64,000 bases of DNA from a phage. The notes under the pieces are model-generated. The model was not told the DNA's origin, did not search any database, and worked only from the letters and a program-made list of their open reading frames with translations. Both the position numbers and the translations under genes were made by a program. This document shows positions 3,392 through 51,046 of this stretch, one piece after another. The stretch lies in assembly GCA_021469345.1 (NCBI GenBank), contig GCA_021469345.1_3049.1. One strand, 5' to 3'. Each line of letters begins with the position of its first letter. Within the stretch, counting starts at the first letter, position 1.

Positions 3392-3883
3392 TTATTCCCA
3401 ATAATCGAGAGCAAGAGTTACTTCAAATGTTTGGATTTCATTGTTTGAATCCCAATCTAATTGAAGTTCACCCACGTTAGTAGGCCACAGACCTTTAATT
3501 TCAATTTCTTTTGTTACTGTTTTAGCGTCACGAGCATATTGACGAACGATAGCGCTCTTTTTATACTCTGCAGGTTTTCCACCAGTAATTTCGTTTCCTT
3601 GTCCCGCAGCAATGCTTTGCCAATCAACAAACTTCTGGCGAGCATCATGTGCCTCATCGTTCATTACTGTAACAGTCCAGTCATCAAATGTACGATCGCC
3701 TGCTACGTTAATTTTACGGTTCATAAATCCGACTGGAATTTTTTCTACAATACCAGCTGGTAAAGCAGTGGCTTTACATTGAAACGTAAAATTTTGTCCA
3801 AGATAAGAAATTTCTACTTGGAATAAGTTAGGTCGCGCAAAATCACCAGATTCAAACGCTCGTGTTACATCATCTACAAACAT
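3392..3883 (-). CDS. 19: Tail tube protein gp19
   Basis: 163 aa, T4 gp19 length and position between 18 and 20. Confidence 0.92.
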   Translation of the reverse strand: MFVDDVTRAFESGDFARPNLFQVEISYLGQNFTFQCKATALPAGIVEKIPVGFMNRKINVAGDRTFDDWTVTVMNDEAHDARQKFVDWQSIAAGQGNEITGGKPAEYKKSAIVRQYARDAKTVTKEIEIKGLWPTNVGELQLDWDSNNEIQTFEVTLALDYWE

Positions 3884-3897
3884 ATTAGCCTCTGTAG

Positions 3898-31404: not shown

Positions 31405-31477
31405 TGGGAATTAGCCAAGTTGGTAAGGCATAGCACTTTGACTGCTAGATGCAAAGGTTCGAGTCCTTTATTCCCAG
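31405..31477 (+). tRNA. tRNA-Gln (anticodon UUG)
   Basis: Cloverleaf read by eye: acceptor TGGGAAT/ATTCCCA, T-arm GGTTCGAGTCC, anticodon loop CTTTGAC. Confidence 0.85.
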
Positions 31478-31478
31478 C

Positions 31479-31565
31479 GCGAGAATGGTCAAATTGGTAA
31501 AGGCACAGCACTTAAAATGCTGCGGAATAATTTCCTTGTGGGTTCGAGTCCCACTTCTCGCACCA
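31479..31565 (+). tRNA. tRNA-Leu (anticodon UAA), long variable arm, CCA encoded
   Basis: Acceptor GCGAGAA/TTCTCGC, anticodon loop CTTAAAA, T-arm GGTTCGAGTCC, 3' ACCA. Confidence 0.85.
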
Positions 31566-31570
31566 AATTT

Positions 31571-31644
<74 letters not shown>

Positions 31645-31654
31645 ATTTAATTTA

Positions 31655-31728
31655 CTCCGTGTAGCTCAGTTTGGTAGAGCGTCTGCTTTGGGAGCAGAAT
31701 GTCGTAGGTTCAAATCCTGCCACGGAGA
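31655..31728 (+). tRNA. tRNA-Pro (anticodon UGG)
   Basis: Acceptor CTCCGTG/CACGGAG, anticodon loop TTTGGGA, T-arm GGTTCAAATCC. Confidence 0.85.
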
Positions 31729-31730
31729 CT

Positions 31731-31817
31731 GGAGGCGTGGCAGAGTGGTTTAATGCACCGGTCTTGAAAACCGGCAGTCGCTCCGGCGACTCATAGGTTC
31801 AAATCCTATCGCCTCCG
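31731..31817 (+). tRNA. tRNA-Ser (anticodon UGA), long variable arm
   Basis: Acceptor GGAGGCG/CGCCTCC, anticodon loop CTTGAAA, T-arm GGTTCAAATCC. Confidence 0.85.
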
Positions 31818-31819
31818 TT

Positions 31820-31895
31820 GCTGATTTAGCTCAGTAGGTAGAGCACCTCACTTGTAATGAGGATGTCGGCGGTTCGATCCCGTCAATCAGCACCA
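31820..31895 (+). tRNA. tRNA-Thr (anticodon UGU), CCA encoded
   Basis: Acceptor GCTGATT/AATCAGC, anticodon loop CTTGTAA, T-arm GGTTCGATCC. Confidence 0.85.
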
Positions 31896-31896
31896 A

Positions 31897-31968
31897 GGCC
31901 CTGTAGCTGGAAGGTTCAAGCAAGCGACTCATAATCGCCAGATGGTGGTTCAATTCCACCCAGGGCCA
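31897..31968 (+). tRNA. tRNA-Ile (anticodon CAU, presumably lysidine-modified as in T4)
   Basis: Acceptor GGCCCTG/CAGGGCC, anticodon loop CTCATAA, T-arm GGTTCAATTCC. Confidence 0.8.
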
Positions 31969-32009
31969 TATTTTGGGAACATAAATACTCTTAGAAATAG
32001 GAGATATTT

Positions 32010-32675
32010 ATGTTCCATTACACTTATAAAATAACAAATAAAATTAATAATAAAATTTATATTGGTGTGCATTCTACCGAAAATTTAGATGATGGATATA
32101 TGGGTTCTGGTAAATTATTAAAAAGAGCTCAAGATAAGTATGGTATAGAAAATTTTTCTAAAGAAATATTAGAGTATTTTGATGATAAAGAATCTATGCT
32201 TGAAGCCGAGAAAAATATTGTCACAGAAGAGTTTTTAAATAGACCAGATGTGTATAATTTAAAACTTGGCGGTGAAGGTGGATGGGACCATATAAATATT
32301 CCTGGGATGCTAAACCAGAAGAAAGACGCTAGTTTAAAAGGAGCTAAATCGTTTAAGTCACGTTTTAAAAATGATATTTTACTTCAAGAAAAATATCGTA
32401 AACATGGTTCAAATGTATTTAAACGCTTGTGGTCAACTCCTGAATACAGGGAAAAATTTTTAAATAATAGCAGATTTTTAAATAAGCATCATACTCCTGA
32501 AACTATTAATAAAATGAAAGAATCTCACGCCAGAAATAAACATCAACAGGGCGAAAAGAATTCCCAATTTGGTATGATGTGGATTCATTCATTAGATGAA
32601 AAAGTTTCTAAACGTATTAAGAAAACTGACCCAATTCCAGAAGGATGGCTTAAAGGTCGAAAAATGAAATTTTAA
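32010..32675 (+). CDS. segB: GIY-YIG homing endonuclease SegB
   Basis: 221 aa; N-terminal YTYKITN...KIYIGVHST...YMGSG GIY-YIG module; inserted inside the tRNA cluster as in T4. Confidence 0.85.
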   Translation: MFHYTYKITNKINNKIYIGVHSTENLDDGYMGSGKLLKRAQDKYGIENFSKEILEYFDDKESMLEAEKNIVTEEFLNRPDVYNLKLGGEGGWDHINIPGMLNQKKDASLKGAKSFKSRFKNDILLQEKYRKHGSNVFKRLWSTPEYREKFLNNSRFLNKHHTPETINKMKESHARNKHQQGEKNSQFGMMWIHSLDEKVSKRIKKTDPIPEGWLKGRKMKF

Positions 32676-32678
32676 TTA

Positions 32679-32754
32679 CGGGGCATAGCTCAGAAGGAAG
32701 AGCAAGGACCTTCTAAGTCCTGGGTCGTAGGTTCGATCCCTACTGCCTCGACCA
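32679..32754 (+). tRNA. tRNA-Arg (anticodon UCU), CCA encoded
   Basis: Acceptor CGGGGCA/TGCCTCG (one G-U pair), anticodon loop CTTCTAA, T-arm GGTTCGATCCC; begins 4 nt after the segB stop. Confidence 0.85.
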
Positions 32755-32757
32755 GAC

Positions 32758-33070
32758 AAGAAGCCGGGTCGCTACCGGTAAGTCGTCGGACTGATGTTCC
32801 CTGAGTAAGGACTGGTCTTAATAAATCTTTACGATTTGTTAATACCCCCTTACATCACAACAGAAACGGCGCACCGAATTATCGATTCGAGGAAATATCT
32901 TTGCCGTAAGCCGAGTAGCGTTTTTGACGGAACGTTCGGATATGGTCGAGATATGGCCTTTTAAAAATATTGAGTAGCGTCAACTGCTTAATAACCGGGT
33001 TCGAATCCCGGCGTTTCGTACAAACACTTGCCTTAGCAGGTGGAACCCCGACAAGGTTGCCGCAAGGCTT
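32758..33070 (+). ncRNA. T4-type small stable RNA region (species 1 / species 2 RNAs), exact ends not determined
   Basis: No credible ORF; contains a tRNA-like T-arm (CCGGGTTCGAATCCCGG); lies directly after tRNA-Arg as in T4; closed by the hairpin terminator at 33071-33100. Confidence 0.45.
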
Positions 33071-33100
33071 AGCCCCAGCCGAAAGGTTGGGGCTTTTTGG
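33071..33100 (+). terminator. Rho-independent terminator after the stable RNA region (repeat copy 1)
   Basis: AGCCCCAGCCGAAAGGTTGGGGCTTTTTGG: stem AGCCCCA/TGGGGCT plus T5. Confidence 0.65.
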
Positions 33101-48497: not shown

Positions 48498-48647
48498 ATG
48501 AAAATTACACCAATTGAAGTAAAAAAGTTGATTGATACAGAAGAAATTTCAGAGTGTTTTGAAAGTTTCTTAGAAGACGCAACTGAAGATAACGCGGTTT
48601 ATCTTGCCCAGAAAATTATCGAAACTTATTTGGAGAAGAATCAATGA
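48498..48647 (+). CDS. Small hypothetical acidic protein
   Basis: 49 aa ORF immediately downstream of an early promoter; ATGA-coupled to the next gene. Confidence 0.35.
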   Translation: MKITPIEVKKLIDTEEISECFESFLEDATEDNAVYLAQKIIETYLEKNQ

Positions 48648-48907
48648 CAGTTTACGTAGATGTTTTAATGAATCATGGATGGAAACTTCGCGGTCATCCA
48701 ACTAAAAATTGTCATATGTTCACTGATGGAGATATTGAAGAGCTTCACGAAATGGCAGAAGCAATAGGAATGAAACGTTCTTGGTTTCAAGATAAACGCA
48801 TTAAACATTATGACTTACACGCTCGGCGACGCCAAAAAGCTGTAGAACTTGGAGCTGTAGAAGTATCTCGTCGCGAAGCAGTAAAAATTTGGCAAACATT
48901 AAAATAA
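48644..48907 (+). CDS. Hypothetical protein
   Basis: 87 aa ORF, His-rich. Confidence 0.45.
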   Translation: MTVYVDVLMNHGWKLRGHPTKNCHMFTDGDIEELHEMAEAIGMKRSWFQDKRIKHYDLHARRRQKAVELGAVEVSRREAVKIWQTLK

Positions 48908-48952: not shown

Positions 48953-48976
48953 ACAAATGTGAAATTGGAGAATAAA

Positions 48977-49945
48977 ATGAAAACTGTAACTATCAATAAG
49001 GGTATCTACTTCGGTAAAGAAATCTCTGGAACTTTTGAGCTCTTAGGTGAATGGTTCCCAGATAATGCTCCGGTAGATGCACAAGGAGATGGTAAAGTTT
49101 TTGTTGAAATTGACGGTAAACGTCGCGGTGTTTGGGTTTACAAATCAGACATTTCATATGATGGTGTAAAAGTTGAAGAAGTTAAAGAATCGTATGAAGA
49201 TATGAAAACCCGCATTAATAAAAGATTTAATGTTATGGGAATGATGACGAATGGTATTATTAATGGAAATATTCGTTCATTAATTATCTCTGGCGCAGCA
49301 GGTATTGGTAAAACGTATTCTTTAGATAAAGCTTTAAATAAAGCAAATGATAATGGATACATTGAATATAAAAGCATTAATGGTAAAATCTCTGGTATCG
49401 GTCTTTATGAACAGCTCTGGAATAATCGTGAAGAGAATTCTGTCCTTTTGATTGATGATGTGGATGTTTTCTCTGATATGGACATTCTTAATCTTCTAAA
49501 AGCCGCTCTGGACACTGGAGAGACCCGTAAAGTCTGCTGGAGCACTGCATCTTCTTACTTAGAAGAAAAAGGCATTGACCGTGAGTTTGAATTTAAAGGA
49601 ACGATTGTTTTTATCACAAACGTTGACATTGACCGCGAATTAGACCGCGGTACTAAACTTGCTCCACATTTACAAGCATTAGTGTCCCGCTCAGTTTATT
49701 TGGATTTGGGTGTTCACACCAATGAAGAAATTATGGTCAGGGTTGAAGATGTTATTCTTTCAACTGACATGATGCAAAAGCGCGGTCTTTCTGATGAAGA
49801 AACTTATAAAGCATTATCATGGATGAAAGTTAATGTTAATCGTTTACGCAATGTTTCACTGCGTACTGCTCTTTATCTTGCTGACTTTATTATGACCGAC
49901 AAAAATCATTGGGAAGAAATTGCTGAAACGGTATTATTAAAATGA
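48977..49945 (+). CDS. AAA+ family ATPase
   Basis: Walker A GAAGIGKT and Walker B LLIDDVD; about 322 aa from the ATG after SD GGAG. Confidence 0.65.
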   Translation: MKTVTINKGIYFGKEISGTFELLGEWFPDNAPVDAQGDGKVFVEIDGKRRGVWVYKSDISYDGVKVEEVKESYEDMKTRINKRFNVMGMMTNGIINGNIRSLIISGAAGIGKTYSLDKALNKANDNGYIEYKSINGKISGIGLYEQLWNNREENSVLLIDDVDVFSDMDILNLLKAALDTGETRKVCWSTASSYLEEKGIDREFEFKGTIVFITNVDIDRELDRGTKLAPHLQALVSRSVYLDLGVHTNEEIMVRVEDVILSTDMMQKRGLSDEETYKALSWMKVNVNRLRNVSLRTALYLADFIMTDKNHWEEIAETVLLK

Positions 49946-50661
49946 AAAAATATTTTACTATCTATAAAACTGAAATATTAAATTTAAAGACAGGTATTAA
50001 GAAATACTATTATGGTCGACATATAACTAATAACATCAATGATTCGTATGTTGGTAGTGGAAATTATATAGAACGTGTAAAAGTGTCAAATGACCACATA
50101 TTATCAAAAACGGTTTTAGAAGTTTTTGATAATTATGATAAAATGGTACAAGCTGAAATATTATATATCATGGCAGGTAAATTGAAATATGGAAAAAACT
50201 GTGTTAACCTGTCATACGGGGGTGAAGGAGGAAAGGTTGCAGATGAAACTAGGATAAAATGCAAAAAGCATTCTATAAATTTATGGAAAAATCCTAATCA
50301 TATACAGCATATGAAGAAAAAGATGAAAGAGGTCACATCCACGCCGGAAGCTAAATTAAACACTTCAATAAAAACTTCGCAACGATATAAGGACCCAGTT
50401 TTTGTTAGAAAAGTTAGTAATATTATTAAAAAGAAACTAAGCAATCCTACAGTAAAAGAAAAGCATATTAATGGAATTAAAGCTGCAAAGCGTTCTCATT
50501 TAACTATATGGCAGTATGAAGATGAATTATTCGAGCTTTGGAAAGAAACTAAATATGGATGGAGAAAATTTACAAAGGAAGCTATAAAACACGGATATCC
50601 AAATGAACCGTATCGTAGTATGGTATCAACTTTTCAGAAAAGACATTTAGAAGAATCCTAA
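49942..50661 (+). CDS. GIY-YIG-type homing endonuclease (seg-like)
   Basis: 239 aa; YFTIYKTE...KKYYYGRH...YVGSG parallels the SegB N-terminus in this window; basic C-terminal region. Confidence 0.6.
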   Translation: MKKYFTIYKTEILNLKTGIKKYYYGRHITNNINDSYVGSGNYIERVKVSNDHILSKTVLEVFDNYDKMVQAEILYIMAGKLKYGKNCVNLSYGGEGGKVADETRIKCKKHSINLWKNPNHIQHMKKKMKEVTSTPEAKLNTSIKTSQRYKDPVFVRKVSNIIKKKLSNPTVKEKHINGIKAAKRSHLTIWQYEDELFELWKETKYGWRKFTKEAIKHGYPNEPYRSMVSTFQKRHLEES

Positions 50662-50743
50662 GACAAAAAGGCAGTTCAGAAATAGATTATATGGACTGCC
50701 ATTAAAAAGATGACTAGAATTAAACTGGTAAACGGAGGTAGTG

Positions 50744-51046
50744 ATGTTATACTCAAAGGCTCGTGAAATTTACGAAACTAAAATTAAAGAAGCAGTATTT
50801 CAGTTCGCAACAACAATGCGATGGACAAATGACTGTGAGTATTCAAAAAATCATAAGAAGCCCATGGTGACAAGAAAGGCTCATATGTTAGTGTTAATAG
50901 ACCGCGAGCAGATTAAAGCCCGAGAAGCCCTCCAGAATCATAAAAAGGCTGCCTTTGAATGGTTTATGGATAACACTGCTCCTGAGACTAAGAAAGCAGT
51001 AAGCGCATGGTTCAGTGGAAAAAATTGCGAAAGAAGTTTCTTTTAG
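50744..51046 (+). CDS. Hypothetical protein
   Basis: About 100 aa. Confidence 0.45.
   Translation: MLYSKAREIYETKIKEAVFQFATTMRWTNDCEYSKNHKKPMVTRKAHMLVLIDREQIKAREALQNHKKAAFEWFMDNTAPETKKAVSAWFSGKNCERSFF

What the first reader, a model, noticed from the sequence alone, without database searches (positions are those of the whole stretch)
32010..32754. GIY-YIG endonuclease inside the tRNA cluster, and a second seg-like gene at 49942
segB splits the tRNA array (seven tRNAs before it, tRNA-Arg starting 4 nt after its stop), and a second GIY-YIG ORF (49942-50661) shares the N-terminal catalytic module (YxYKITN / KxYYGRH / Y[MV]GSG). Free-standing homing endonucleases drive marker exclusion and localised gene conversion, so the flanking genes (tRNAs; the AAA+ ATPase and paralog array) are likely exchanged between co-infecting phages.
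Basis: partly seen in the sequence, partly recalled or inferred. Interest (0 to 1): 0.4.

Follow-up and report, generated by a model that had tools for sequence, protein, structure and literature searches.

The report
Two homing endonucleases in T4-like phage
The window comes from a T4-like coliphage with two selfish "homing" nuclease genes: the well-studied segB inside the tRNA gene cluster, and a second, uncharacterised relative inserted exactly at the stop codon of gene nrdC.10. This is an ordinary feature of this phage group.

Summary
ORF 32010-32675 is the segB ortholog, 96% amino-acid identical to T4 SegB. Seven tRNA genes lie upstream and tRNA-Arg follows 3 nt after its stop.

ORF 49942-50661 ("ORF2") is a real but divergent Seg-type GIY-YIG gene. 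Pfam does not detect it. A profile-profile alignment to the Pfam-positive SegB clade gives 98.2% probability (E 6e-14).

ORF2 behaves like a mobile homing endonuclease gene:
- It is present in 67 phage records, while 434 of 503 have the empty site.
- It always sits at the nrdC.10 stop codon, including 43-46% identical homologs in other T4-like lineages.
- It is about 11-fold less diverse at third codon positions than its flanks.
- Frameshifted or truncated copies exist.
- The last 7 nrdC.10 codons are recoded in every carrier.

No flanking SNP beyond about 20 bp is linked to ORF2.

The window's segB cassette lies between T2-type tRNA alleles, whereas T4 and T6 have T4-type alleles. That is a natural mosaic of the kind SegB homing would produce.

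SegB is already known. ORF2 is an annotated but uncharacterised member of a known kind. Interest is low to moderate.

The parts
31405..31968 (+). Seven tRNA genes upstream of segB: Gln, Leu, Gly, Pro, Ser, Thr and a CAU-anticodon 'Met'. The last one (31897-31968) is the T2-type allele, not T4's tRNA-Ile.
   Evidence: ARAGORN and Rfam. Allele comparison: 100% identical to T2 tRNA-Met, 69% to T4 tRNA-Ile. The SegB core recognition motif GGTTCRANTCC is present in 5 of these tRNAs.
31969..32009 (+). segB leader: late-promoter-like CATAAATA (31980-31987) and Shine-Dalgarno AGGAG (31999-32003). It has one mismatch to the T4 leader over 41 nt, and differs from the T6 leader.
   Evidence: Sequence read; alignment to T4; comparison of leaders. 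[quoted passage not shown] Promoter function is not tested here.
32010..32675 (+). segB, a free-standing GIY-YIG homing endonuclease (221 aa)
   Evidence: 96% amino-acid identity to T4 SegB and 93.7% to T6 SegB. Pfam PF01541 28.5 bits against a cut-off of 22.6. PHROG_314 E 1.7e-52.
32679..32754 (+). tRNA-Arg (UCU), T2/AR1-type allele, immediately downstream of segB
   Evidence: ARAGORN and Rfam. 98.7% identical to AR1, 94.7% to T2, and only 69.7% to the T4/T6 tRNA-Arg.
48959..49945 (+). nrdC.10 homolog (P-loop/AAA-like ATPase of unknown function). It is the host gene at whose stop codon ORF2 sits. The true start may lie a few codons downstream of the GTG at 48959.
   Evidence: ORF list; weak AAA/STAND Pfam hits; PHROG_1250 E 3e-166; annotated nrdC.10 in AR1, RB51 and T4.
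49925..49945 (+). Recoded last 7 codons of nrdC.10 (GAA ACG GTA TTA TTA AAA TGA, protein ...AETVLLK*). This is the predicted immunised target site, or the minimal co-converted tract.
   Evidence: All 8 ORF2-carrying genomes have this version. Nine of the 10 genomes without ORF2 have G[AC]G GTT ACT CTT CTG AAA TAA (...AEVTLLK*, or ...ATVTLLK* in G8 and ECML-134), and T4 has a frameshifted variant. The same ETVLLK*/ATGA overlap occurs in a distant T4-like contig.
49942..50661 (+). ORF2: an uncharacterised Seg-type GIY-YIG free-standing homing endonuclease gene (239 aa), the ortholog of RB32ORF093c and T6 KMB99_gp092. Residues 1-100 form the nuclease domain, 100-181 helical repeats, and 182-239 a low-confidence C-terminal region.
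   Evidence: BLASTP to SegB E 7e-13. PHROG_314 E 1.9e-30. hhalign to the SegB clade 98.2%. Invariant residues retained. AF2 N-terminal domain pLDDT 87. Matches to viral Seg-like models. Presence/absence polymorphism.
50744..51046 (+). nrdC.9 homolog, the downstream neighbour. Homology with ORF2-less genomes resumes at CTAAGAC (50656-50662).
   Evidence: Alignment to T4; junction table.

Best explanation
The window is from a Tequatrovirus (T4-like phage) that carries two independent free-standing GIY-YIG homing endonuclease genes.

(1) segB. By orthology, its product cuts tRNA genes at the sequence encoding the T-psi-C arm (GGTTCRANTCC core), with a preference for tRNA-Asn of segB-less relatives. 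The break is repaired by phage recombination from the segB-bearing genome, so segB and its neighbouring tRNA genes are copied in and the recipient's markers are lost. In this phage the cassette (leader + segB + ATTAC spacer) sits in a T2-type tRNA array, where it replaces Tyr/Asn(/His) between tRNA-Met and tRNA-Arg.

(2) ORF2. This is a divergent Seg-type enzyme inserted exactly at the nrdC.10 stop codon; its ATG overlaps the TGA. Inferred mechanism: it is made at a low level, probably by translational coupling. It cleaves the ORF2-less allele in or near the last codons of nrdC.10 or the nrdC.10-nrdC.9 spacer, and is copied in by recombinational repair. The carrier allele is protected because those 7 codons are recoded while the NrdC.10 protein tail is kept.

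Shown here: gene identity, residues, insertion site, distribution, low diversity, recoding.
Inferred: cleavage activity, target position and homing of ORF2.
For: segB:
- 96% identity to T4 SegB.
- Pfam GIY-YIG above threshold.
- Same slot directly upstream of tRNA-Arg as in T4 and T6.
- Y17 and G19 are present; these were mutated together (Y17A/G19A and Y17F/G19A) to inactivate T6 SegB (PMC13096335).
- The recognition core motif occurs 6 times in the window against 0.2 expected, 5 of them in the tRNAs.
- T4 x T2L crosses gave 99.6% inheritance of segB, dependent on gene integrity (PMC2330249).
- Mosaic: the window's tRNA-Met is 100% T2-type and its tRNA-Arg 95-99% T2/AR1-type, while segB and its leader are T4-type. 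T4 and T6 carry other alleles. The 5' neighbour is Ile in T4, Met here and Tyr in T6.

ORF2:
- Homologous to SegB.
- Retains Y8, Y23, G25, H27, D34, Y36, G38-S39-G40, E72, N89 and GG93-94, which are invariant or nearly so in 112 family members.
- The order of secondary-structure elements is that of a GIY-YIG domain, with pLDDT 87.
- 49 viral Seg-like/GIY-YIG models match at E<=1e-3.
- 67 records carry it at >=95% amino-acid identity, while 434 of 503 have the uninterrupted site.
- The junctions are identical in 8 carriers.
- Third-codon-position diversity is 0.0049, against 0.054 (nrdC.10) and 0.064 (nrdC.9) in the same genomes. Segregating sites are 9/720 against 132/2106, Fisher p 4e-9.
- Decayed copies exist in AR1 (a 1-nt deletion giving 165 aa) and RB3 (96 aa).
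- Homologs 43-46% identical in a Klebsiella phage and a metagenomic T4-like contig also follow the nrdC.10 homolog directly.
- The carriage patterns of segB and ORF2 are independent: window and T6 +/+, T4 and ZCEC15 +/-, AR1 -/+, T2 -/-.
Against: - No biochemical or genetic data exist for ORF2, and I found no paper on it.
- Pfam and NCBIfam give no hit for ORF2 or for two divergent homologs, even at E<=10.
- Foldseek finds no solved GIY-YIG structure for either model.
- Sequence search of the PDB is uninformative.
- The equivalent of I-TevI Arg27 cannot be placed unambiguously.
- No flanking SNP beyond ~20 bp is associated with ORF2 in 8 carriers against 10 non-carriers, so long co-conversion tracts are not seen.
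- No recognisable late promoter precedes ORF2 and no clear Shine-Dalgarno sequence does either.
- The recoded tail could simply be donor-lineage sequence rather than a selected immunity change.
Confidence: 0.75

Rival explanations
1. ORF2 is an old, vertically inherited gene that most Tequatrovirus lineages have lost. It is now an inactive or decaying relic, not a currently mobile element.
For: Homologs sit at the same locus in distant T4-like lineages, which could reflect ancestry. Frameshifted or truncated copies exist. No expression signal was identified.
Against: Third-position diversity of ORF2 is about 11-fold lower than that of both flanking genes in the same 8 genomes. An ancestral gene should be as diverged as its neighbours. 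Flanking haplotypes within 15-25 bp of the junction segregate freely in both carriers and non-carriers. Seven of 8 sampled copies are intact, with all family-invariant residues. Independent precise loss in most lineages, each restoring one codon version of the nrdC.10 tail, is unparsimonious.
Confidence: 0.1
2. ORF2 is an active nuclease retained mainly because it benefits the phage, rather than as a purely selfish homing gene. The benefit could be damaging co-infecting competitors, or seeding recombination and segmental amplification of nearby loci, as shown for SegB.
For: SegB of T6/T4 drives SegB-dependent amplification of tRNA-Tyr, the gp49.1-nrdC.1 region and tifA under defence pressure (PMC13096335). 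T6 also carries ORF2. An intron endonuclease mediating interference competition is reported (PMC11620839 abstract).
Against: In T6 the amplification of the nearby gp49.1-nrdC.1 region was lost in the segB deletion although ORF2 was still present. ORF2 is absent from most relatives and decays in some, as expected of a dispensable selfish gene. Nothing here tests a benefit.
Confidence: 0.12
3. ORF2 has lost nuclease activity and acts only as a DNA-binding protein, for example a repressor, as I-TevI can act at its own operator.
For: It is a divergent clade invisible to the Pfam GIY-YIG models. Several nearly invariant family positions are changed: T13L, N17T, K->V48, G->N50, N->I53, Y->V88.
Against: All strictly invariant positions are kept, including the residues aligned with SegB Y17 and G19 and the invariant Glu and Asn. 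They are also conserved among three ORF2-clade members only 43-46% identical to one another.
Confidence: 0.03

Closest known systems
Phage T4 SegB (free-standing GIY-YIG homing endonuclease in the tRNA cluster; Brok-Volchanskaya et al. 2008, PMC2330249)
   Same: 96% amino-acid identity, same length (221 aa), a leader with one mismatch over 41 nt, and the same position immediately upstream of tRNA-Arg within the tRNA array.
   Different: The flanking tRNA genes are different alleles. The window has T2-type tRNA-Met and T2/AR1-type tRNA-Arg; T4 has tRNA-Ile and a tRNA-Arg only 70% identical.
Phage T6 SegB (drives segmental amplification of tRNA-Tyr and other anti-defence loci; Chihara et al. 2026, PMC13096335)
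   Same: 93.7% amino-acid identity, with Y17 and G19 conserved; upstream of tRNA-Arg.
   Different: T6 has tRNA-Tyr directly upstream of segB and a different leader, and it lacks Pro and Ser in the array. The window has no tRNA-Tyr at all, so the tRNA-Tyr/segB repeat unit described for T6 cannot form here.
RB32ORF093c / T6 KMB99_gp092 / AR1 'segE' (annotated putative site-specific intron-like DNA endonuclease)
   Same: ORF2 is the ortholog: 98.7-100% amino-acid identity and the identical position between nrdC.10 and nrdC.9.
   Different: Nothing substantive. The AR1 copy is frameshifted. The 'segE' label in some records is a name transfer, since T4 segE lies at a different locus, inh/uvsW.
T4 SegF and SegG (free-standing Seg endonucleases that exclude T2 gene 56 and gene 32 markers)
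   Same: A gene inserted between two conserved genes. The presumed target lies in the adjacent gene of the HEG-less relative, and sequence differences near the junction distinguish carrier alleles from non-carrier alleles.
   Different: ORF2's cleavage site and homing are untested. ORF2 overlaps the host gene's stop codon and carries a recoded version of its last 7 codons.
I-TevI catalytic domain (PDB 1MK0/1LN0), the structural reference for GIY-YIG homing endonucleases
   Same: The GIY and YIG strands and the following helix/strand align by profile: hhalign 90.9%, E 1e-6, using an I-TevI sequence recalled from memory. A PDB profile search touches 1MK0 at the GIY-YIG hairpin only.
   Different: I-TevI is intron-encoded. 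There is no significant Foldseek match of the ORF2 model to it. The Seg family has longer strands, an invariant His two residues after the YIG glycine, and no unambiguous Arg27 equivalent.

Membership tests
T4-type SegB (ORF 32010-32675) | High sequence identity to the experimentally characterised T4 and T6 SegB proteins | tested here: met
   213/221 identical to T4 SegB; 93.7% to T6 SegB.
T4-type SegB (ORF 32010-32675) | Free-standing gene inside the phage tRNA array, directly upstream of tRNA-Arg | tested here: met
   Seven tRNAs upstream and tRNA-Arg 3 nt downstream; same slot in T4 and T6.
T4-type SegB (ORF 32010-32675) | GIY-YIG catalytic domain recognised by the curated model, with the residues mutated to inactivate T6 SegB (Y17, G19) | tested here: met
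   PF01541 28.5 bits against a cut-off of 22.6; K15-I-Y17-I-G19 present. The double mutants Y17A/G19A and Y17F/G19A were inactive in PMC13096335.
T4-type SegB (ORF 32010-32675) | Site-specific cleavage of tRNA genes at the GGTTCRANTCC core, and segB-dependent preferential inheritance | not testable with these tools
   Only the substrate motif could be checked: 6 matches against 0.2 expected, 5 of them in the tRNAs. Activity is known for T4 SegB.
GIY-YIG nuclease superfamily (ORF2, 49942-50661) | Match to the curated GIY-YIG profiles (Pfam PF01541/PF19835, TIGR01453) | tested here: not met
   No Pfam or NCBIfam hit for ORF2 or for two 43-46% identical homologs, even at E<=10.
GIY-YIG nuclease superfamily (ORF2, 49942-50661) | Demonstrable homology of the N-terminal domain to proteins that do match the curated profile | tested here: met
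   BLASTP to SegB E 7e-13. hhalign of the ORF2 clade against the PF01541-positive SegB clade: 98.2%, E 5.6e-14 over 94 columns. PHROG_314 E 1.9e-30.
GIY-YIG nuclease superfamily (ORF2, 49942-50661) | Conserved Tyr of 'GIY', Tyr-x-Gly of 'YIG', catalytic Glu and structural/metal Asn | tested here: met
   Y8, Y23, G25, E72 and N89 occupy columns that are 97-100% conserved in 112 family members and align with SegB Y6, Y17, G19, E67 and N83. Correspondence of E72/N89 to I-TevI E75/N90 is inferred from position, not directly aligned.
GIY-YIG nuclease superfamily (ORF2, 49942-50661) | Conserved catalytic Arg (Arg27 of I-TevI) | tested here: inconclusive
   hhalign places I-TevI residues 23-31 in a gap relative to the Seg profile. 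Candidates are the invariant H27 or R45, which is R in 71/112 members.
GIY-YIG nuclease superfamily (ORF2, 49942-50661) | GIY-YIG fold (three-stranded sheet flanked by helices) matching a solved structure | tested here: inconclusive
   The AF2 N-terminal model (pLDDT 87) has the element order b-b-a-b-a. Foldseek finds no PDB hit at E<=0.001. It matches 49 predicted viral Seg-like/GIY-YIG models with TM 0.6-0.74.
Free-standing homing endonuclease gene (ORF2) | Own ORF between genes, not inside an intron or intein | tested here: met
   It lies between nrdC.10 and nrdC.9, and its start overlaps the nrdC.10 stop.
Free-standing homing endonuclease gene (ORF2) | Presence/absence polymorphism at one precise site among close relatives | tested here: met
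   67 records carry it at >=95% amino-acid identity. 434 of 503 have the uninterrupted junction. Junctions are identical in 8 carriers.
Free-standing homing endonuclease gene (ORF2) | Evidence of recent horizontal spread: the element is much less diverged than its flanks, with no linkage to flanking haplotypes | tested here: met
   Third-position pi is 0.0049 against 0.054 and 0.064, Fisher p 4e-9. No associated flank SNP beyond the junction tracts.
Free-standing homing endonuclease gene (ORF2) | Carrier allele differs from the empty allele at the presumed target so that it escapes cleavage | tested here: inconclusive
   The last 7 nrdC.10 codons are recoded in all carriers. That this is the target, or that it confers resistance, is inferred.
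Free-standing homing endonuclease gene (ORF2) | Double-strand cleavage of the HEG-less allele and nuclease-dependent super-Mendelian inheritance | not testable with these tools
   Requires a cleavage assay and phage crosses. No publication was found.

The most novel reading that the evidence does not exclude
ORF2 defines an uncharacterised, locus-specific Seg lineage that targets the nrdC.10 stop-codon region and is currently sweeping through Tequatrovirus. Like SegB, it might also seed recombination or segmental amplification of the adjacent variable nrdC.x/49.x region, which contains the anti-OLD gene 49.2. That would make it a second 'accordion driver' rather than a purely selfish gene.
Probability: 0.1. 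Interest if true: 0.55.

Novelty: new member of a known kind. Interest (0 to 1): 0.25.

Why it matters
The segB part adds nothing new in principle, because its homing and its role in amplifying anti-defence loci are published. It does supply a clean natural example: the same segB cassette sits between T2-type rather than T4-type tRNA alleles, with breakpoints at the tRNA gene ends.

The ORF2 part points to an untested homing endonuclease that is present in classic phages (T6, RB14, RB32/33, RB51). It comes with a concrete, testable prediction of its target, the last codons of nrdC.10 in T2 and T4. It also comes with population evidence that it is spreading now. If confirmed, it would explain one more local marker-exclusion site in T-even crosses and add a new DNA specificity to the Seg family. 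This is useful to phage geneticists but not surprising.

Tried and rejected
- Direct sequence searches of ORF2 and SegB against PDB chains, and a 112-sequence profile against the PDB, gave nothing usable beyond a 19-residue touch on I-TevI.
- Foldseek of the full-length model (pLDDT 67) and of the N-terminal model (pLDDT 87) against the PDB gave no hit at E<=0.001. I therefore do not claim structural confirmation against a solved GIY-YIG domain.
- The word-indexed protein search with ORF2 alone found only 2 relatives; a small alignment was needed as query.
- IMG/VR gave only four close Tequatrovirus loci, so GenBank records were fetched one by one.
- I looked for a co-conversion signature, meaning flank SNPs associated with ORF2 or reduced flank diversity in carriers. 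I found none beyond ~20 bp. I first read the perfectly associated junction sites as non-homologous replacement. After translating them I re-read them as a recoded nrdC.10 tail.
- I searched for a T4 late promoter (TATAAATA) or a clear ribosome-binding site for ORF2 and found none. A MotA-box-like TGCTGAC...TATTAT inside nrdC.10 is too weak to claim.
- I considered that other Seg or Mob genes might lie in the window. An HMM of the Seg family finds only the two, and seven other mid-sized ORFs gave no nuclease domains.
- Literature searches for nrdC.9, and for nrdC.10 with endonuclease, found no study of ORF2.
Full report
**What is in the sequence.** The ORF at 32010-32675 (+, 221 aa) and the ORF at 49942-50661 (+, 239 aa, "ORF2" below) both exist as described. 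ARAGORN and Rfam agree on seven tRNA genes at 31405-31968 (Gln, Leu, Gly, Pro, Ser, Thr and a CAU-anticodon tRNA called Met). They also agree on tRNA-Arg(UCU) at 32679-32754, three bases after the TAA stop of the first ORF. The finding's end coordinate is therefore the end of tRNA-Arg, not of the gene. The window is a Tequatrovirus (T4-like coliphage). The tRNA region matches 933 phage records, at 95-97% identity for the best, and the second locus matches at up to 98.7%.

**The first gene is segB.** Its product is 213/221 identical to T4 SegB and 93.7% identical to T6 SegB. It passes the Pfam GIY-YIG threshold (28.5 against 22.6 bits). It occupies the same slot as in T4 and T6, directly upstream of tRNA-Arg.

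T4 SegB is experimentally characterised:
- It makes double-strand cuts in tRNA genes and recognises a 27-bp site whose conserved core is GGTTCRANTCC, the T-psi-C arm.
- It prefers tRNA-Asn of segB-less phages.
- It is inherited by 99.6% of T4 x T2L progeny, in a manner that depends on gene integrity, with loss of the T2L tRNA markers (PMC2330249).

A 2026 paper further shows that T6/T4 SegB drives segmental amplification of tRNA-Tyr, of the gp49.1-nrdC.1 region and of tifA. This amplification is recombination-dependent and allows escape from Septu, OLD and ToxIN. The Y17A/G19A and Y17F/G19A double mutants were inactive (PMC13096335). The window's SegB has Y17 and G19. The core motif occurs 6 times in the window against 0.2 expected, five of them in the tRNAs upstream of segB.

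**The segB neighbourhood is a natural mosaic.** The segB ORF is 96.5% identical to T4 at nucleotide level, and its 41-nt leader has one mismatch to T4's. The tRNA on its 5' side is 100% identical to T2's tRNA-Met and only 69% identical to T4's tRNA-Ile. The tRNA-Arg on its 3' side is 95-99% identical to the T2 and AR1 alleles and only 70% identical to the T4/T6 allele.

The arrays compare as follows:

| Phage | tRNA array |
|---|---|
| T4 | Gln Leu Gly Pro Ser Thr Ile [segB] Arg |
| window | Gln Leu Gly Pro Ser Thr Met [segB] Arg |
| T6 | Gln Leu Gly Thr Ile-type Tyr [segB] Arg |
| T2 | Gln Leu Gly Pro Ser [orf] Met Tyr Asn Arg |
| AR1 | Gln Leu Gly [SegB-like gene] Ser Thr Met Tyr Asn His Arg |

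So segB always abuts tRNA-Arg and always replaces tRNA-Asn, its preferred target, while the left partner varies. In this phage the breakpoints fall at the very ends of the flanking tRNA genes. The arrangement of the window-type tRNA-Met followed by the segB leader occurs in 77 records. That it arose by homing is an inference from the pattern together with the published crosses.

**The second gene is a divergent Seg-type GIY-YIG gene.** Pfam and NCBIfam give no hit for ORF2, nor for two homologs 43-46% identical to it, even at E<=10. Homology is nevertheless firm:
- BLASTP to SegB gives E 7e-13.
- PHROG_314 'homing endonuclease' gives E 1.9e-30 over the whole length.
- A profile-profile comparison of the ORF2 clade with the Pfam-positive SegB clade gives 98.2% probability, E 5.6e-14 over 94 columns.

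In a 112-member family alignment, ORF2 keeps every invariant or near-invariant catalytic-domain residue: Y8, Y23, G25, H27, D34, Y36, G38-S39-G40, E72, N89 and G93-G94. These align with SegB Y6, Y17, G19, H21, E67 and N83.

ORF2 does differ from the family consensus at several nearly invariant, probably structural positions, which explains why Pfam misses it. AlphaFold2 models the N-terminal 100 residues confidently (pLDDT 87), with the element order strand-strand-helix-strand-helix.

Two caveats remain. Foldseek found no solved structure at E<=0.001 for either model, although 49 predicted viral Seg-like or GIY-YIG models match. The equivalent of I-TevI Arg27 is also ambiguous.

**Where ORF2 sits.** It lies between nrdC.10 (a P-loop ATPase-like gene) and nrdC.9, and its ATG overlaps the nrdC.10 stop (ATGA). 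Comparison with T4 and nine other ORF2-less genomes defines the site to the base. In ORF2-less genomes, nrdC.10 typically ends GAG GTT ACT CTT CTG AAA TAA (...AEVTLLK*). That stop is followed 15-16 nt later by CTAAGAC (CTATGAC, CTAAGAT or CTATAAC in some genomes). In all eight carriers examined it ends GAA ACG GTA TTA TTA AAA TGA (...AETVLLK*), followed by the 0.72-kb ORF and then CTAAGAC.

The element is thus inserted at the stop codon. The last seven codons of the host gene are recoded at about 10 of 21 positions, while the protein tail is essentially kept. The last ~17 nt of ORF2 also resemble the original spacer. Clustered substitutions next to the insertion point are what one expects either from selection for a non-cleavable carrier allele or from a very short co-converted tract from a diverged donor. 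A distant T4-like metagenomic contig has the same ETVLLK*/ATGA junction with a 43% identical ORF2 homolog.

**Evidence that ORF2 is, or recently was, mobile.**
- (i) Sporadic distribution. 67 phage records encode it at >=95% amino-acid identity (T6, RB14, RB5, RB6, RB32/33, RB51, RB68, AR1, IME537, ZN18 and others). 434 of 503 records have the uninterrupted junction.
- (ii) Carriage is independent of segB. The window and T6 have both, T4 and ZCEC15 have only segB, AR1 has only ORF2, and T2 has neither.
- (iii) Low diversity. In eight carriers ORF2 has 9 segregating sites in 720 bp, against 132 in 2106 bp of flanks (Fisher p 4e-9). Third-codon-position diversity is 0.0049, against 0.054 in nrdC.10 and 0.064 in nrdC.9. 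The gene therefore coalesces far more recently than the DNA around it.
- (iv) No linkage. Flanking haplotypes are not linked to it. A polymorphism 15-25 bp from the junction (AAAAATCAT/AAAAACGGT) segregates in both carriers and non-carriers. No site in 0.97 kb upstream or 2 kb downstream shows an allele-frequency difference >=0.6, apart from the junction tracts.
- (v) Decay. AR1 has a 1-nt deletion that truncates the protein to 165 aa, and RB3 encodes a 96-aa remnant.
- (vi) Site fidelity. Homologs 43-46% identical in Klebsiella phage Wolf_ER13 and in a metagenomic T4-like contig also follow the nrdC.10 homolog directly (74-78% amino-acid identity).

Together these fit the homing endonuclease life cycle better than vertical descent with loss.

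The claim that flanking genes are exchanged is well founded for segB, from published crosses and the mosaic shown here. For ORF2 the data show that the gene moves onto many flanking backgrounds. They do not show the ATPase gene or the downstream nrdC genes travelling with it. Any co-conversion tract that persists is about 20 bp on each side. Longer tracts may occur in individual crosses and be erased by the intense recombination of these phages, but that cannot be decided here.

**Mechanism, with status.**
- Shown: gene identities, residues, junctions, distribution, diversity contrast, recoded tail.
- Established from the literature for the ortholog: SegB cleavage specificity, homing and amplification.
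- Inferred for ORF2: it is translated at a low level (probably coupled to nrdC.10, since no late promoter or clear ribosome-binding site precedes it). It cuts the ORF2-less allele in or near the nrdC.10 stop-codon region and is copied in by UvsX/UvsY-dependent repair. The recoded tail protects carriers.

I put about 0.75 on the overall reading, and about 0.65 on the current nuclease and homing activity of ORF2 specifically.

**Novelty and score.** SegB is already known in detail. ORF2 has been annotated as a putative endonuclease since the RB32-era genomes but, as far as the searchable literature shows, has never been studied. It is a new member of a known kind. A specialist would not be surprised. 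The useful products are a base-precise insertion site, a predicted target and a population signal of recent spread. Interest is 0.25.

Noticed in passing
L040 (phage AR1) 1679-2329: AR1 has a SegB-like gene between tRNA-Gly and tRNA-Ser, where the window, T4 and T2 have tRNA-Pro. It is 86% identical to SegB over the N-terminal 113 aa only, and the C-terminal half is unrelated. This suggests domain shuffling between Seg genes and a second insertion slot in the tRNA array.
   Followed up: partly
window 31890-31968: The end of tRNA-Thr plus the tRNA-'Met' gene is 97.5-98.7% identical in rV5-like phages (FV3, Murica, LL12) and in records labelled Campylobacter phage. These tRNA genes are therefore shared across phage genera. 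ARAGORN cannot tell whether the CAU tRNA is Met or a lysidine-modified Ile like T4's.
   Followed up: no
window 32755-33100: An ORF-free stretch downstream of tRNA-Arg is conserved with the T4 region annotated rnaC (species 1 RNA). It holds a sixth GGTTCRANTCC motif (32998-33008) and a terminator-like hairpin (33071-33094). Rfam at gathering threshold reports nothing there.
   Followed up: partly
window 48498-48907: Two small ORFs (49 aa, and 87 aa annotated DUF4031 in relatives) between nrdC.11 and nrdC.10 are themselves a variable cassette. They are present in IME537, SYGD1, ACG-C40 and ECML-134 and absent in AR1, RB51, RB33, T6 and RB27. T2, ACG-C40 and SYGD1 carry a ModB-like ADP-ribosylase at this place.
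   Followed up: no
L056 1004-1768: The metagenomic T4-like contig that carries an ORF2 homolog has, two genes upstream, another ORF that resembles only the C-terminal half of ORF2 (31% over 111 aa). It may be a second nuclease sharing the DNA-binding module.
   Followed up: no
L041 (T6) 3587-3889 and many GenBank records: nrdC.9 and nrdC.10 homologs are frequently annotated 'thioredoxin' or, in T6, 'HNH homing endonuclease'. These look like name-propagation errors. A nrdC.9-like neighbour in L056 carries only DUF7203.
   Followed up: no
window 49942-50247 (ORF2 residues 1-102): A confident AF2 model of the Seg-type nuclease domain has 10-11-residue strands and finds no solved structure by Foldseek, although predicted viral models match. 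Either small-domain sensitivity is the problem, or the Seg-type domain is an elaborated GIY-YIG variant for which no close solved structure turned up.
   Followed up: partly
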